From Acidimicrobiia bacterium (GTDB taxonomy: Bacteria > Actinomycetota > Acidimicrobiia > Acidimicrobiales > SZUA-35), in the NCBI GenBank assembly GCA_003231975.1, contig QIKW01000079.1:1-56620 (forward strand): 56,620 nt of DNA, written 5' to 3'. Each line of letters starts with the position of its first letter. Position 1 is the stretch's first letter. Positions 7,597 to 56,620 of the stretch are shown here, one piece after another. The position numbers and the translations under genes are program-made. The notes under the pieces were generated by a model. That model was not told the origin of the DNA and did not search any database. It saw only the letters and a list, made by a program, of their open reading frames with translations.

Positions 7597-7998
7597 CGTT
7601 CCTCGGCCTTGCGGCCTCGTCTCTTCCCGAGTGTTTGTCGCTTCGCGCCAAAACTCGCCGGCGCCTGTTTGTTTCATTCAGGACCAGCAAAGCCGGACCC
7701 TGCTTGGCCCAGGGGCTCTGCCCCTGGAACCCCGTCTTGCGTGGTCGCCGTCGGCGACCAGCGAGAATCGCGTGACCAGGATGGGCGGAGCCCGGGAGGC
7801 GGTAGCCGACCCAATATGATCGCCCGGGAGGCGGTAGGCCACCGCCGTTCCTCGGCCTTTGGGGCCTCGTCTCTTCGCAACTTTTTCGCTTCGCTCAAAA
7901 CTCGCCCTTGGCTTGTGACGCGTTGCCGACGGCGTCGGCACGCTGCGAGCGGGTGAGTTGGATGGGCGGAGCCCGGGAGGCGGTAGCCGACCCAATAT
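7597..7998 (+). repeat. Modular palindromic extragenic repeat mosaic, locus 2
   Basis: Identical 39-nt module at 7779-7817 and 7960-7998; near-identical module starting at 7597 and 7846; hairpins at 7709-7727, 7742-7760 and 7924-7940; lies between convergent genes. Confidence 0.9.
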
Positions 7999-52862: not shown

Positions 52863-53243
52863 TCAGATGGCCTGGCGTCGTTGGCGGAATGCCAGCACCG
52901 CGGTAAGCCTGACTTTGCGATTGAGGCCAACCTGTTCGTAGGGGATCTCGCCTGCTGCTAATAGTTCGGCGAAATCCTGGGGCGAGATGTCCAGCAGGTC
53001 GGCCGCTTCGCCGGTTGTAAGAACCTCTCGAACCGGAGCAACCGTGATGGCCTGGCCATCAGCCATGGCTGAAACAACGTTTCGCAGTACTTCAAACACC
53101 TCGGGCGGCAACGCAACCGTCTCTCCCGACTCGGCGCCAAGCGTTGTTGGCGACCCGTCTCGAACCCCCTCAACCAGGGCCACCAACTCGTCGAAGGGAA
53201 CGCTTGGGGGAAAGACGGTGCGATCAAGGGACCACTTGGCCAC
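52863..53243 (-). CDS. Excisionase-like (HTH_17) DNA-binding protein, orphan/degenerate
   Basis: LP.E.F..L..V..AMA.G.A.T..P....LTT.EAADLL; GEIP....G..R.V. Confidence 0.75.
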   Translation of the reverse strand: MAKWSLDRTVFPPSVPFDELVALVEGVRDGSPTTLGAESGETVALPPEVFEVLRNVVSAMADGQAITVAPVREVLTTGEAADLLDISPQDFAELLAAGEIPYEQVGLNRKVRLTAVLAFRQRRQAI

Positions 53244-53278
53244 AATTCAGCTCCGCGGTCGGCCCGCCAGAGCCGGGA

Positions 53279-54172
53279 TCAGCTCCACTGGGCCATCAGC
53301 TTGGCGAACTCGTCTGCCGGGCCGTTTGGAACCACGTAGCCCTCTTCAGCGTTGATGGCTTCCCAGTCTTCGGCAACGGTTTCCACCGTGATGTCGGCGC
53401 CGCGGTGAGTGCCAGGGGTTAGCCCGATGAAGTAGCGGGCAATGGTGCCGCCCGCCGCGCTGTAGACACAGCCGCTGGTTTCGTTGCTCTGGTGGGCCAG
53501 GTAAACCACAACCGGAGTTACCAATTTGGGATCAAGTTGATCAGACATTCCACCAAGCAGGTCTTCGGTCATCCGGGTGGCGGCAACCGGAGCGATTGCA
53601 TTTACCAGAATGTTGTACTTCGCCCCTTCCGCGGCCAGAACCCGGGTGAGGCCAACGAGGCCCATTTTGGCTGCCCCATAGTTGGCCTGGCCGAAGTTGC
53701 CGGTGAGGCCGGAGTTGGACGATGTGTTGATCACCCGGCCATAACCCTGCTCTCGCATGTGAACCCACGCAGGCTGAGTGACGTAGAAGGCGCCCCTGAG
53801 GTGCACGTCAAGTACCGAGGTGATCTCGGCAGCCGACATCTTGTGAAAGGTCTTGTCCCGCAGGATCCCCGCGTTGTTGACAACAACGTCGACCTGACCG
53901 AAAGCGTCGATGGCCGCCTGAACAATTGCCTTGCCGCCCTCCTCGGTGGCCACGCTGTCTGCATTGGCAACAGCCTCTGAGCCCAGGGCTTCAATTTCGG
54001 CGACAACAGCCTCGGCCGCCGTTTTCGAGCTGCCGCTGCCATCGACTGACCCACCAAGGTCGTTGACAACCACGCGGGCGCCCCGCTTGGCGAACTCCAG
54101 CGCATGCTCTCGACCCAGCCCTCCACCGGCTCCGGTGATGATCACAACCTTGCCGTCGAATCCCAGTTCCAT
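53279..54172 (-). CDS. SDR oxidoreductase (3-hydroxyacyl-CoA dehydrogenase/MFE-2-like)
   Basis: TGAGGGLG; VVVNDLG; NNAGILRD; GNFGQANY.AAK; NAIAP.A.TRMT. Confidence 0.92.
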   Translation of the reverse strand: MELGFDGKVVIITGAGGGLGREHALEFAKRGARVVVNDLGGSVDGSGSSKTAAEAVVAEIEALGSEAVANADSVATEEGGKAIVQAAIDAFGQVDVVVNNAGILRDKTFHKMSAAEITSVLDVHLRGAFYVTQPAWVHMREQGYGRVINTSSNSGLTGNFGQANYGAAKMGLVGLTRVLAAEGAKYNILVNAIAPVAATRMTEDLLGGMSDQLDPKLVTPVVVYLAHQSNETSGCVYSAAGGTIARYFIGLTPGTHRGADITVETVAEDWEAINAEEGYVVPNGPADEFAKLMAQWS

Positions 54173-54277
54173 TTTCTGATTTCCTGCCTGTTCAGTGATT
54201 TGGGTCGTATGTGTATCGGACGGCGCAGAGCATACGGGAGCCAACGGGCGCCGCCAAAGCCGACGGACCGTTCAGCT

Positions 54278-55219
54278 TCAGTTTTGGTTGAACAGCTCCT
54301 GGTCTTCGGGAGACTGCCACTGGGGTTGGTCGCTTCGATCGCTGCGGGTATCGGCGTGCTCTGCTCCTGAAGCGCCTGCCGCTTCTTGGCCCCTGCTCCA
54401 GCTCATCGGGCTGGCCTTCCACGAATCTTGGCTCCATTTAACCCCAATGTCTGCAATAGGCCCGGGCTCGCCAGGCTGTGGCTTCTCCATGGCAACCGCA
54501 AGCTCAAGGGCGTCTTGCACAATCTTTCGTTGCAGCACGGGATCGTTTGGCGGCCCGGCAGTGTGACCAAGCGGAAGATCCACAAATGCAGACCTTGGGG
54601 GGTTCGCCCTTTTTGTGATTGACATGGCGGAAGTAAGCCCAATCGTTGGGAATCCCGCCTCTTCGAGGCTGCGAGCGATCAGACCGATCGACTGGTGGCA
54701 AACCGGTCAAACCGGCACCAGCAACACAAGGTCGGGCTCTTCAGCCTTGCAGTGCTCCAGCAGGGCAGGCACTGTGTCTTCGCCAAGTCGGCGGGTGCTG
54801 TAAATGCCTCCCATGAACGCCGCGGCGGTCGGCGTGACAGCACCGATTGTGCCGTCGGCGGCCAGCTCGTTCAATCGATCAAGGGGGAACACGCAGTTCG
54901 GGTCGACCCGGGCGTCGGTCTGGTCATACGCGAAATGGGCGGTTCGCAGCTGGCTGGTTGGTGAGTTCGACGCGATGGAGCGAATTGAGGTGTCGTCTTT
55001 GGTGTGGAAGGCCTGCTGGCCCGCGAGGTAAACACCGCCGGAACCAATGAGGGTTACCTTGCATTCGTTCAGCGGCTTAGAGATTGGAGCCCAGGGCGGA
55101 GTCTCGTGCCTTTCGGCCCACCTGTACGCGTCGTAACCAAGGCCGCTGTAGAGCCGCCGGGTTTCATCTATGTAGTCGGCTGGCGGAAGGGCGCAAGCGC
55201 CAACCGCGGCGTCGCTCAT
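54278..55219 (-). CDS. PrdB/GrdB-family selenoprotein (Sec at in-frame TGA 54707-54709), 313 aa
   Basis: The two track ORFs are in the same frame; read-through gives LLVPV-U-PVCHQSIGLIARSLEEAGFPT (UxxCH). Both sides resemble D-proline reductase PrdB (D.NC.FP.DRL.ELA..G.I; FMG; P.G..AG.PN). A SECIS-like hairpin follows the TGA. Confidence 0.88.
54674..54693 (-). promoter_or_regulatory. Bacterial SECIS-like hairpin
   Basis: mRNA AG-U(bulge)-CGAUC-[GGUCU]-GAUCG-CU; loop at nt 22-26 downstream of the UGA. Confidence 0.72.
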
Positions 55220-55653
55220 TCAGACTCCAAACGTTGCTGCATTCGTTCTGCCTCTTTGTCTATCCCCGATTCCAGCACCTTGCCAAGTGCGCTGGCCAAT
55301 GGGCCGGTCAAGAATGTTGTGCCCTCGGCGTTAATGGCAAACAGCGCCTCAGTCGCTGCTTCGCCCCGTGGGTCAAGGCTGAGGGTCACCGTTACCTTGA
55401 TTCCCTTGGCTTGGGCCCGCACCGCCATGGACTGGCGGCCCGCTCGCCCAGTGGGGCTGACCGTTGCCTCGTCGTTAACCGTTCCAAGCGGGGTCTTGAG
55501 GCTGAACATGAATGCAGTGAGGTCGCCGGAAACGTCGTGGACCGGGTCTCGAAGTTTGTGAAGCCCGCCAATGCCTTCCCAGGTGCGCACCTTCTGGAGG
55601 CGCTCCCACACCTCATCCACCGGGCGGTTGATCCTCAAGGTTCTCTCTGCCAT
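55216..55653 (-). CDS. SRPBCC/CoxG-like ligand-binding protein
   Basis: I..PVDEVWE.L N-terminus, beta-rich core, C-terminal helix; ATGA overlap with the selenoprotein start. Confidence 0.6.
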   Translation of the reverse strand: MAERTLRINRPVDEVWERLQKVRTWEGIGGLHKLRDPVHDVSGDLTAFMFSLKTPLGTVNDEATVSPTGRAGRQSMAVRAQAKGIKVTVTLSLDPRGEAATEALFAINAEGTTFLTGPLASALGKVLESGIDKEAERMQQRLESE

Positions 55654-55667
55654 AGAGCAACTATTAC

Positions 55668-55928
55668 ATTGGTTCGGCTATCGCCTCACCGGCTTCGCCG
55701 GATCTGGGTCTTTTGCTCGCGGCGTGCCGACGCCGTCGGCAGCGCGTGGCTGTTGTATTGGTTCGGCTATCGCCTCACCGGCTTCGCCGGATCTAGCTCA
55801 GTCGCTCAAAGCTGGTCGCCGATGGCGACCACGCGTGGCTGTTGTGTTGGGACCTGCTTTGCAGGTCCGCCTTCGGCCAATCCAGCTCAGCCGCTTAAAG
55901 CTGGTCGCCGATGGCGACCAGCCGTGGC
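55668..55928 (-). repeat. Modular palindromic extragenic repeat, locus 3 (three units, 89-nt period, inverted relative to loci 1 and 2)
   Basis: Units start at 55668, 55757 and 55846; the reverse complement matches the modules at 1-92 and 7739-7998. Confidence 0.9.
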
Positions 55929-55945
55929 AGGCTGGGGCCGAGCCG

Positions 55946-55992
55946 TTCTGGAGGCCTGTACCCCTAGAAAAGCACAGTACAGGCCTCCAGAA
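55946..55992. terminator. Perfect 16-bp inverted repeat downstream of the ureohydrolase gene
   Basis: TTCTGGAGGCCTGTAC / GTACAGGCCTCCAGAA with 15-nt loop. Confidence 0.55.
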
Positions 55993-56071
55993 TCTCCCAA
56001 AACCGGAACTGGCGTCAAGCTGTTTCGCGAACAACCGCCGGATCCAAGCCTGGGTTTGGTGCAAGCGAAAT

Positions 56072-56620
56072 CTAGGACCTAGAGCGCACGCCTGGGAGGA
56101 CGCAGAGCATCTCGTACAGCAGGTTGGCTGCCACCAGTGAGGTGTTGCCGGTTGGGTCATAAGCTGGCGCAACCTCAACCAGGTCGGCGCCAACGATGTT
56201 GAGGCCAGCGCAGCCCCGGATGATTTCGATGCCCTGAATCACTGTGAGGCCACCAATCTCAGGTGTTCCGGTGCCTCCGGCAAAAGCTGGATCCAAGCCG
56301 TCAATGTCGAAGCTCAGATAGACCGGGCCGTCGCCTAGCTGTTCCCGTACCTCCGCCATCAGGGGCGTCAGAGACTTGTGCCAGCACTCCTCGGCCTGGA
56401 CCACGCGGAAGCCCTGATCCCGGGACCAGTCGAAATCGTCAGCGGCATAGCCAGTTGCCCGCACCCCTATTTGCACCACCCTGTTTGGGTCAAGCAGGTT
56501 TTCCTCAACCGCCCTTCGGAACGGAGTGCCATGGGTGATTGCCTCGCCAAACATGGAGTCGTTGATGTCGGTGTGGGCATCAACATGAACCAGGCCAACC
56601 GGGCCGTGCTTTTTCTGCAT
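56072..56620 (-). CDS. speB: Agmatinase/guanidinobutyrase-type ureohydrolase (5' part lies beyond the window)
   Basis: HVDAHTD; HGTPFRRA; SFDIDGLDP..A.GTGTPE.GG; DLVEVAP.YD. Confidence 0.8.
   Translation of the reverse strand: MQKKHGPVGLVHVDAHTDINDSMFGEAITHGTPFRRAVEENLLDPNRVVQIGVRATGYAADDFDWSRDQGFRVVQAEECWHKSLTPLMAEVREQLGDGPVYLSFDIDGLDPAFAGGTGTPEIGGLTVIQGIEIIRGCAGLNIVGADLVEVAPAYDPTGNTSLVAANLLYEMLCVLPGVRSRS

What the first reader, a model, noticed from the sequence alone, without database searches (positions are those of the whole stretch)
54278..55219. Hidden selenoprotein: PrdB/GrdB-like gene split by a UGA in the ORF track
Seen: ORFs 54707-55219 and 54278-54625 are in frame and separated by a single TGA. 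Read-through gives V-U-P-V-C-H-Q-S and a continuous 313-aa protein. Established: D-proline reductase PrdB and glycine/betaine reductase GrdB carry Sec in a UxxC motif and are classically from anaerobic Stickland fermenters. Inference: this actinobacterium makes a Sec enzyme that standard gene calling would break into two hypothetical proteins.
Basis: partly seen in the sequence, partly recalled or inferred. Interest (0 to 1): 0.85.

Follow-up and report, generated by a model that had tools for sequence, protein, structure and literature searches.

The report
Orphan PrdB-like selenoprotein gene
The two open reading frames are one gene for a selenocysteine-containing relative of proline reductase subunit PrdB, a protein family already known to be common in marine microbes, here found without its usual enzyme partners.

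Summary
On the minus strand, 54707-55219 and 54278-54625 are in frame and separated by one TGA (54707-54709). Read-through gives 313 aa with V-U-P-V-C-H-Q-S.

It is a genuine selenoprotein gene:
- The genome has selD (itself with Sec), selA, selB and tRNA-Sec.
- The TGA is at the same codon in 36 of 36 related loci.
- Cys replaces it in 25 of 26 full-length database homologues.
- The frame after the TGA evolves as coding sequence.
- A hairpin 14-32 nt from the UGA covaries across 60 family members. The window's own copy of it is weak (5 of 7 pairs).

The protein is closest to PrdB but scores below NCBI's cut-off (164 vs 300 bits). No PrdA/GrdE or GrdA was found in the genome, and positive controls for both searches worked. 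It is therefore probably a stand-alone selenol/thiol reductase, not a Stickland enzyme.

PrdB-type UxxC selenoproteins have been listed among the most abundant marine selenoprotein families since 2005-2008. This is a new member of a known kind. Public gene calls do truncate it.

The parts
54278..55219 (-). PrdB-like selenoprotein gene, 313 aa, including the terminal TGA at 54278-54280. The ATG at 55217-55219 overlaps the stop of the upstream gene (ATGA).
   Evidence: frame. (PF07355 30.8 bits; TIGR04483 164.3 bits, E 3e-48). (orthologues at 44-74% identity over nearly the full length, each with 1 TGA). (AlphaFold2 pLDDT 96, pTM 0.94 for the read-through protein).
54707..54709 (-). UGA codon read as selenocysteine (U171).
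   Evidence: TGA at this codon in 36 of 36 loci. Cys in 25 of 26 full-length database homologues; aligns with Cys151 of a true PrdB.
54698..54700 (-). TGC codon for Cys174, the second residue of the UxxC motif.
   Evidence: Cys in 22 of 26 database homologues (Asp in 3, Gly in 1) and in all 12 orthologues aligned.
54670..54709 (-). Candidate SECIS region (positions 1-40 counted from the U of UGA). Family-consensus hairpin: stem 14-20/26-32 (54678-54696), loop 21-25 (GAUCG). Alternative hairpin: 20-24/30-34 (54676-54690), loop GGUCU. A third hairpin includes the UGA: 2-8/22-28 (54682-54708).
   Evidence: The consensus hairpin covaries family-wide (84.0% of cells paired; 5 of 7 pairs change on both sides; 0 of 500 shuffles and 0 of 2000 synonymous-codon resamplings reach it). 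In the window only 5 of 7 pairs form (-0.4 kcal/mol). The alternatives give -4.6 and -7.8 kcal/mol and show no covariation beyond shuffles.
55216..55653 (-). Upstream gene for a 145-aa SRPBCC/polyketide-cyclase-like protein. Its stop overlaps the selenoprotein start.
   Evidence: PF10604 22.3 bits, below the 27.4 cut-off, E 1.7e-4; found upstream in 6 of 6 genus-level loci (L041-L046, 46-52% identity; separated by another ORF in L045) and in 0 of 10 more distant loci (L047-L056).

Best explanation
One gene (54278-55219, minus strand) encodes a 313-aa selenoprotein of the PrdB/GrdB superfamily in an uncultured Acidimicrobiales bacterium. The in-frame UGA is decoded as selenocysteine by the genome's own SelA/SelB/SelC/SelD system, helped by an mRNA hairpin just 3' of the UGA. 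Sec171 and Cys174 (U-P-V-C) lie where a beta-strand runs into a helix. They most likely cycle between selenol/thiol and selenenyl-sulfide while reducing a small-molecule or protein substrate. The oxidised pair would be re-reduced by a cellular thiol system such as thioredoxin. No PrdA/GrdE or GrdA was found, so the protein probably acts alone and not as a subunit of a Stickland D-proline or glycine reductase. Shown: gene continuity, conservation of the UGA, Sec/Cys pairing, the Sec machinery, a family-level hairpin, and the lack of any partner match. Inferred: actual Sec insertion, the redox cycle, the reductant and the substrate.
For: Frame and motif.

Sec machinery:
- selD, 364.7 bits, with one in-frame TGA in the motif SHGAG-U-GCK.
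- selA, 397.8 bits, and selB, 293.4 bits, adjacent on contig C16.
- tRNA-Sec, 66.4 bits, anticodon TCA.

TGA is not reassigned: it ends 1151 of 1990 long ORFs.

Conservation:
- 35 of 61 related genomes have matches.
- 109 of the 116 listed matches carry an in-frame TGA.
- The 27 best matches (44-100% identity, near full length) carry exactly one.
- TGA is at the same codon in 36 of 36 loci.

Sec/Cys pairing: Cys in 11 of 11 and 25 of 26 full-length homologues, and Cys151 of a true PrdB.

Coding after the TGA: against three genus members, differences at codon positions 1/2/3 are 16/17/63, 21/19/53 and 22/20/56 over 91 codons. Amino-acid identity is 57-75% over residues 172-262 against 63-78% over residues 1-170.

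Hairpin:
- 84.0% of cells paired against 75.3 +/- 1.0 in shuffles, and 61.1 +/- 1.8 under synonymous-codon resampling.
- Slid controls give 12.6-41.4%.
- Compensatory changes occur, for example CCAGAC/GUCUGG to GCGUAC/GUACGC.
- Spacing (17 nt), loop (5 nt) and a G in the first two loop positions fit the published bSECIS model (passage read).

Fold: pLDDT 96, with strand 164-168 followed by helix 172-187.

No partners: PF09338 and PF04723 give no match in the genome, which is 95.5% complete. The same searches find GrdE/PrdA in 10 of 301 genomes of the phylum (this count includes the unpublished genome G207), and GrdA plus a true GrdB in 5 of 5 of those tested. No family recurs next to the gene in 14 orthologous loci; the best is ECH in 4 of 28 neighbours.
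Against: - The window's own copy of the family hairpin is poor: 5 of 7 pairs, -0.4 kcal/mol. That is no better than synonymous resampling of its own codons (P = 0.51).
- The two alternative hairpins (-4.6 and -7.8 kcal/mol) lack covariation support. Folding 76 nt gives z = -1.1. The SECIS of this particular gene is therefore not pinned down.
- The three Cys forms examined also keep 5-6 of 7 hairpin pairs. Part of the pairing may come from the H-Q...L-V peptide.
- Sec incorporation is not shown by any experiment.
- The genome is a 275-contig draft, so a partner gene could lie in the missing ~4.5%.
- No solved structure resembles the model. The redox mechanism rests on the motif and on analogy.
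Confidence: 0.8

Rival explanations
1. It is the B subunit of a real D-proline, glycine or betaine reductase, and works with a partner that was missed. The partner could lie in the unassembled part of the genome, or be a carbonyl-bearing protein that is not homologous to PrdA/GrdE.
For: The best family match is PrdB (TIGR04483, E 3e-48). There is 34% ungapped identity over 199 residues to a true PrdB, with the Sec site aligned. The genome is only 95.5% complete.
Against: The score of 164.3 is far below the equivalog cut-off of 300. PF09338 and PF04723 give no match, while the same searches succeed elsewhere in the phylum. In those genomes grdE, grdB and grdA are clustered. Here no neighbour recurs across 14 loci. 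The genome has three such paralogues and relatives have up to seven matches, which would be odd for a single complex.
Confidence: 0.1
2. The UGA is a stop some or all of the time. The cell makes a 170-aa N-terminal protein. Alternatively, the UGA is read through with Cys or Trp by a near-cognate tRNA, without selenium.
For: The window's own SECIS is weak. TGA is the main stop codon of this genome.
Against: The sequence after the UGA is under purifying selection in the same frame and folds with the N-terminal half into one confident domain. The UGA is kept in all orthologues, although one base change would give Cys. The full Sec machinery is present.
Confidence: 0.06
3. It is a pseudogene with a nonsense mutation, or two unrelated small genes.
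For: Standard ORF calling gives two pieces.
Against: TGA is at the same codon in 36 of 36 loci, and 109 of 116 family matches carry a TGA. The 27 codons before the second ORF's ATG encode the most conserved motif of the family, PVCHQS.GL.AR. Substitutions downstream are biased to the third codon position.
Confidence: 0.02

Closest known systems
'Proline reductase PrdB' selenoprotein family of marine metagenomes (Zhang, Fomenko & Gladyshev 2005, PMC1088965; Zhang & Gladyshev 2008, PMC2398784)
   Same: Pfam PF07355 domain and a UxxC motif with Sec first. There are many Sec forms and fewer Cys forms (235 vs 110 in GOS Table 2; 42 vs 1 in the Sargasso Sea), and the sequences come from oxic environmental samples (passages read). 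The window protein fits this description.
   Different: I could not compare it directly with those metagenomic sequences, because the supplements are closed. In the passages I read, those papers give no host taxon, no partner analysis and no paralogue counts. Here the hosts are Acidimicrobiales, with 3 copies in this genome and up to 7 matches in relatives.
D-proline reductase subunit PrdB of Clostridia (NCBIfam TIGR04483)
   Same: Best-scoring family (E 3e-48). There is 34% ungapped identity over 199 aa to a true member, and Sec171 aligns with its active-site Cys/Sec position in a U/C-x-x-C motif.
   Different: The score is 164 against a cut-off of 300. The protein carries about 40 extra N-terminal and about 70 extra C-terminal residues. 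No PrdA was found in the genome. The host belongs to the Acidimicrobiales, not to a Stickland fermenter.
Glycine/sarcosine/betaine reductase selenoprotein B (GrdB, GrdF, GrdH; TIGR01917, TIGR01918)
   Same: Same superfamily. Pfam GRDB is over its gathering score (30.8 vs 22). The UxxC Sec site is shared.
   Different: Only profile positions 214-317 of 347 match. TIGR01918 scores 32.6, below its cut-off of 65.45. No GrdA or GrdE was found, whereas true grdE-grdB-grdA clusters exist in other members of the phylum.
Bacterial SECIS consensus (bSECISearch model, as summarised in PMC13188914)
   Same: [quoted passage not shown] It lies 17 nt after the UGA. Its free energy is at or below -7.5 kcal/mol in 28 of 60 sequences.
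   Different: In the window's genus two stem pairs are mismatched (C15.A31, U19.U27), which gives -0.4 kcal/mol. This copy therefore fails the energy criterion, unless a shifted 5-bp hairpin with a GGUCU loop is the one used.

Membership tests
Bacterial selenoprotein gene (Sec-decoded UGA) | In-frame UGA aligned with Cys (or Sec) in homologues | tested here: met
   Cys in 11 of 11 and 25 of 26 (one Ser) full-length homologues. Aligns with Cys151 of a true PrdB.
Bacterial selenoprotein gene (Sec-decoded UGA) | UGA conserved in orthologues, with coding conservation on both sides | tested here: met
   TGA at the same codon in 36 of 36 loci. The 27 best genome matches each carry 1 TGA. Differences downstream are biased to the third codon position.
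Bacterial selenoprotein gene (Sec-decoded UGA) | selA, selB, selC and selD in the same genome | tested here: met
   all four are over their curated cut-offs, and the tRNA-Sec anticodon is TCA.
Bacterial selenoprotein gene (Sec-decoded UGA) | SECIS hairpin just 3' of the UGA that fits the bSECIS model | tested here: inconclusive
   Supported by covariation at family level. The window's own copy forms 5 of 7 pairs at -0.4 kcal/mol, and the alternative hairpins are unsupported.
Bacterial selenoprotein gene (Sec-decoded UGA) | Selenium actually incorporated at the UGA | not testable with these tools
   Needs 75Se labelling or mass spectrometry.
D-proline reductase PrdB (TIGR04483 equivalog) | Score over NCBI's curated cut-off | tested here: not met
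   164.3 bits against a cut-off of 300. A true member, P0151, scores 453.2.
D-proline reductase PrdB (TIGR04483 equivalog) | Pyruvoyl proprotein partner PrdA (PF09338) in the genome | tested here: not met
   No match in the genome, which is 95.5% complete. The same search is over the cut-off in 10 of 301 genomes of the phylum (includes the unpublished genome G207).
D-proline reductase PrdB (TIGR04483 equivalog) | U/C-x-x-C active site at the homologous position | tested here: met
   U-P-V-C aligns with C-G-T-C of P0151.
D-proline reductase PrdB (TIGR04483 equivalog) | prd operon context (PrdC, PrdD, PrdE, PrdF) | not tested
   Those families were not searched. The neighbours here are SRPBCC-like, SDR, HTH, ECH and PAP2 genes.
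Glycine/sarcosine/betaine reductase protein B (GrdB family) | Pfam PF07355 over its gathering score | tested here: met
   30.8 bits against 22, but only profile positions 214-317 of 347 match.
Glycine/sarcosine/betaine reductase protein B (GrdB family) | TIGR01918 subfamily cut-off | tested here: not met
   32.6 bits against 65.45.
Glycine/sarcosine/betaine reductase protein B (GrdB family) | GrdA (PF04723) and GrdE (PF09338) present | tested here: not met
   No match. Positive control: GrdA found in 5 of 5 GrdE-bearing genomes of the phylum.
Marine 'PrdB' UxxC selenoprotein family (GOS and Sargasso Sea) | pfam07355 domain with Sec in a UxxC motif | tested here: met
   compared with the table rows read. 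No direct sequence comparison with those data was possible.

The most novel reading that the evidence does not exclude
The Acidimicrobiales PrdB-like proteins are a separate enzyme class. They would be stand-alone, pyruvoyl-independent selenocysteine reductases, diversified into 3 to 7 paralogues per genome. Nearly all keep Sec and share a covarying SECIS. Each paralogue would reduce a different small substrate in aerobic heterotrophs, with no link to Stickland fermentation.
Probability: 0.3. Interest if true: 0.55.

Novelty: new member of a known kind. Interest (0 to 1): 0.3.

Why it matters
The finding gives a clean, checkable example of a selenoprotein that public gene callers cut in two. 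Of the 120 closest database entries, 93 are N-terminal halves, some of them named 'selenoprotein B family protein'. Annotation of Acidimicrobiales genomes therefore understates their selenoproteome.

The abundant marine 'PrdB' selenoprotein family has been known since 2005. These results assign a lineage of it to a host group, and that lineage has no match to PrdA/GrdE or GrdA. Its function is therefore open and probably not proline reduction.

The covarying hairpin gives a usable SECIS model for this family. None of this overturns current knowledge.

Tried and rejected
- **Fold and structure.** A PDB sequence search with the read-through protein found nothing at E <= 1. Foldseek against the PDB gave a best E of 0.012 with unrelated proteins. 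VIA-align wide gave a best Z of 8.0, to LacI or periplasmic-binding-type alpha/beta folds. That is within the range the tool calls common, so no fold assignment was made.
- **Rfam.** A scan of 53000-56620 at E <= 1 gave two chance-level hits and no SECIS family.
- **Gene neighbourhood.** The window's neighbours are unrelated housekeeping-type genes. The neighbours of the two other paralogues in this genome show nothing in common. The immediate neighbours of 14 orthologous loci show no recurrent family.
- **SRPBCC gene as a partner.** I considered it because of the ATGA overlap. I did not pursue it, because it is adjacent only within the genus. No complex prediction was run.
- **Alternative SECIS registers.** A 5-bp hairpin with a GGUCU loop, and a long hairpin that includes the UGA, have no covariation beyond shuffles.
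- **Regex losses.** Six of the 40 fetched paralogue loci (L057-L061 and L084) gave no match to my motif regex. They are absent from the hairpin counts.
- **Crude genome-wide screen for in-frame TGA.** It listed 111 places. Most are adjacent genes in the same frame. It missed the three PrdB-like genes and selD at my score threshold, so it is not a census.
- **Literature.** These searches found no paper placing this family in Acidimicrobiales: 'PrdB-like' (0 papers); 'selenoprotein + PrdB + Actinobacteria' (1 paper, seen only in the listing); 'Acidimicrobiia + selenocysteine' (2 papers). Of those two, I read passages of the Actinomarina preprint and saw the other only in the listing. Supplementary tables of the selenoproteome papers were closed and may hold such assignments.

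Full report
**Observation.** On the minus strand, ORFs 54707-55219 and 54278-54625 share a frame. The sequence reads ...CTG GTG CCG GTT TGA CCG GTT TGC CAC CAG TCG.... Translation of 54278-55219 with TGA=U gives a continuous 313-aa protein with U171 in LLVPV-U-PVCHQS, ending at a second TGA. The start ATG overlaps the stop of the upstream gene (ATGA).

**Family.**
- Pfam places the read-through protein in GRDB (PF07355; 30.8 bits, gathering score 22; only profile positions 214-317 of 347 match).
- NCBIfam gives D-proline reductase PrdB (TIGR04483) as by far the best match (E 3e-48, 164.3 bits). This is well under the equivalog cut-off of 300.
- The broad 'selenoprotein B' subfamily model TIGR01918 scores 32.6, under its cut-off of 65.45.
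- A database protein that is a true PrdB by that model (P0151, 453.2 bits) aligns without gaps over 199 residues at 34% identity. U171 and C174 of the window protein fall on C151 and C154 of P0151.

**Is the UGA read as Sec?** The window's genome is a draft of 3.71 Mb in 275 contigs, 95.5% complete.
- Sec machinery: selD (364.7 bits), selA (397.8 bits) and selB (293.4 bits), the last two adjacent on one contig, and a tRNA-Sec (66.4 bits, ARAGORN anticodon TCA).
- SelD itself has an in-frame TGA in SHGAG-U-GCK.
- TGA is the commonest stop: 1151 of 1990 ORFs of at least 300 codons, a rough count that includes spurious frames. The code is therefore not globally changed.
- A search of 61 related genomes found matches in 35. 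Of the 116 listed matches, 109 contain an in-frame TGA. All 27 near-full-length matches with 44-100% identity have exactly one.
- Of the 7 matches without a stop, 3 are Cys forms (PH-C-PVCHQ). The other 4 are fragments that do not reach residue 171.
- In 36 of 36 loci fetched by two routes, the TGA is at the same codon. The named records among them are uncultured Acidimicrobiia or Acidimicrobiales MAGs.
- Full-length database homologues at 28-48% identity carry Cys at this column in 25 of 26 cases and Ser in one. Those with source names come from Proteobacteria. C174 is Cys in 22 of 26.
- Downstream of the UGA, three genus members differ from the window at codon positions 1/2/3 by 16/17/63, 21/19/53 and 22/20/56 over 91 codons.
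- Residues 172-262 are 57-75% identical in 12 orthologues.
- AlphaFold2 folds the whole read-through protein as one confident unit (pLDDT 96.0, pTM 0.94). U171 lies between strand 164-168 and helix 172-187.

A pseudogene, two separate genes, or a purely truncated product are all hard to reconcile with these results.

**SECIS.** I aligned 51 nt around the UGA from 60 distinct Sec-containing orthologues and paralogues; the alignment has no gaps. Positions below are counted from the U of UGA.
- A hairpin with stem 14-20/26-32 and loop 21-25 forms in 84.0% of cells. Shuffles give 75.3 +/- 1.0% (0 of 500 reach the observed value), and slid partners give 12.6-41.4%.
- Five of 7 pairs change on both sides, in 40 cells. 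Examples are CCAGAC/GUCUGG, GCGUAC/GUACGC, ACGUGUC/GACACGU and CCAAAC/GUUUGG.
- Resampling synonymous codons with the genome's codon usage gives 61.1 +/- 1.8% paired, and 0 of 2000 resamplings reach 84%.
- Codon choice agrees. The Gly codon at 25-27 is never GGC (0 of 36), although GGC is half of all Gly codons. Ser there is AGT in 18 cases and AGC in 5, although AGT is the rarest Ser codon.
- The 17-nt spacing, the 5-nt loop and a G among the first two loop bases fit the published bacterial SECIS model (passage read).
- The hairpin alone reaches -7.5 kcal/mol or lower in 28 of 60 sequences.

The window's genus is the weak case. With CAC...GGT...ATC it has two mismatches, giving 5 of 7 pairs and -0.4 kcal/mol. 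That is no better than resampling its own codons (P = 0.51). Relatives with CAT and GGA restore all 7 pairs.

Two alternatives exist in the window. One is a shifted 5-bp hairpin with loop GGUCU (-4.6 kcal/mol). The other is a longer hairpin that includes the UGA (-7.8 kcal/mol; it is the minimum-free-energy structure). Neither covaries beyond shuffles.

The three Cys forms also keep 5-6 of 7 pairs. The family has a supported SECIS, but which structure serves this gene is open.

**What it is not.**
- PF09338 (PrdA/GrdE) and PF04723 (GrdA) give no match in the genome.
- The named control genomes were silent, so I ran my own controls. PF09338 is over its cut-off in 10 of 301 genomes sampled from the phylum (one of them, G207, is unpublished). 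In 5 of 5 of those tested, GrdA (each with one TGA) and a true GrdB (345-383 bits) are found, next to GrdE in four of the five.
- The window's neighbours are an SRPBCC-like gene, an SDR, an HTH protein, an enoyl-CoA hydratase, a PAP2 phosphatase and others.
- The SRPBCC-like gene is adjacent only within the genus.
- No family recurs among 28 neighbours of 14 orthologous loci.
- The genome's two other paralogues (contigs C38 and C68, each with one TGA) have unrelated neighbours.

The protein is thus an 'orphan' PrdB-like selenoprotein. My mechanism is a U-x-x-C selenol/thiol redox couple at a helix N-terminus, re-reduced by a thiol system, acting alone on an unknown substrate. This is an inference from the motif, the fold position and the behaviour of related reductases.

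**What is known.**
- The Sargasso Sea selenoproteome lists 'Proline reductase (PrdB)' with 42 Sec sequences and a UXXC motif, the third most abundant known family (passages).
- GOS Table 2 lists 'Proline reductase PrdB, pfam07355, UxxC' with 235 selenoproteins in 38 samples and 110 Cys homologues (passages).
- Genome surveys count it in Deltaproteobacteria and other groups (passages).
- A 2026 review lists D-proline reductase (TIGR04483, UxxC) among confirmed selenoproteins (passages).
- A 2026 preprint reports Sec machinery and a Sec-containing SelD in Actinomarina (passages); the search retrieved it under 'Acidimicrobiia'.

The kind is therefore known. This gene is a new member, with some added detail: the host lineage, the lack of any partner match, the number of paralogues and a SECIS model.

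**Verdict.** The implied Stickland function is unlikely and the novelty is modest. Public gene calls do split or truncate the gene. Of the 120 best database hits, 93 are 172-281 aa and cover 51-54% of the protein. The representative library also holds separate C-terminal halves that begin at residue 173 or 178.

Noticed in passing
window 55661-55928 (also 7739-7816 and 15-38): Three tandem copies of an ~89-nt unit with short GC hairpins lie between the SRPBCC-like gene and the arginase-family gene. blastn of one unit gives 155 hits on 75 of the genome's 275 contigs, often in tandem and at contig ends. This looks like a genome-wide REP- or MITE-like intergenic repeat. It is not specific to the selenoprotein genes.
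   Followed up: partly
window 55946-55992: A perfect 16-nt inverted repeat (TTCTGGAGGCCTGTAC / GTACAGGCCTCCAGAA) with 15 nt between the arms, in the same intergenic gap.
   Followed up: no
own genome, contig C95:2515-3432 (locus L001): The selD gene has an in-frame TGA in the motif SHGAG-U-GCK, so selenophosphate synthetase is itself a selenoprotein here.
   Followed up: partly
own genome, C38:472-1254 (+) and C68:13567-14325 (-) (loci L097-L100): Two further PrdB/GrdB-like paralogues, each with one TGA in L/V-U-PVCH and a perfect 7-bp hairpin at the family position (-12.0 and -10.3 kcal/mol).
   Followed up: partly
own genome, loci L110 (C174), L111 (C114), L112 (C14), L113 (C141): Four more candidate selenoproteins from a crude screen. 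One is DsrE-like with U-P-N-C. Two are AhpC/TSA- or thioredoxin-like lipoproteins with W-x-x-(W/L)-U-P-x-C. One is AhpC/TSA-like with W-U-G-C. In each, the Pfam domain spans the TGA. I did not check them against homologues.
   Followed up: partly
loci L028-L036, L038, L040, L047-L053, L055, L056 (3' end of the orthologous gene): Most orthologues outside the window's genus end in an extra conserved tail, W-(D/A)-x-Q-C-L-(V/T/S)-C-(I/L)-G, which is a second CxxC. The window's genus, L037, L039 and L054 lack it. It may be a shuttle dithiol for the active site.
   Followed up: no
loci L072, L074, L075, L093, L094: A paralogue subgroup has the motif U-P-L-C-T-R-T-V-(S/G)-T-L-A instead of U-P-V-C-H-Q. 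Its hairpin stem is fully re-coded (GCGUAC/GUACGC) with the same loop, CGUGA or CGUGG.
   Followed up: partly
window 56072-56620 (-): An arginase-family gene (PF00491, 205 bits) is cut off by the end of the contig.
   Followed up: no
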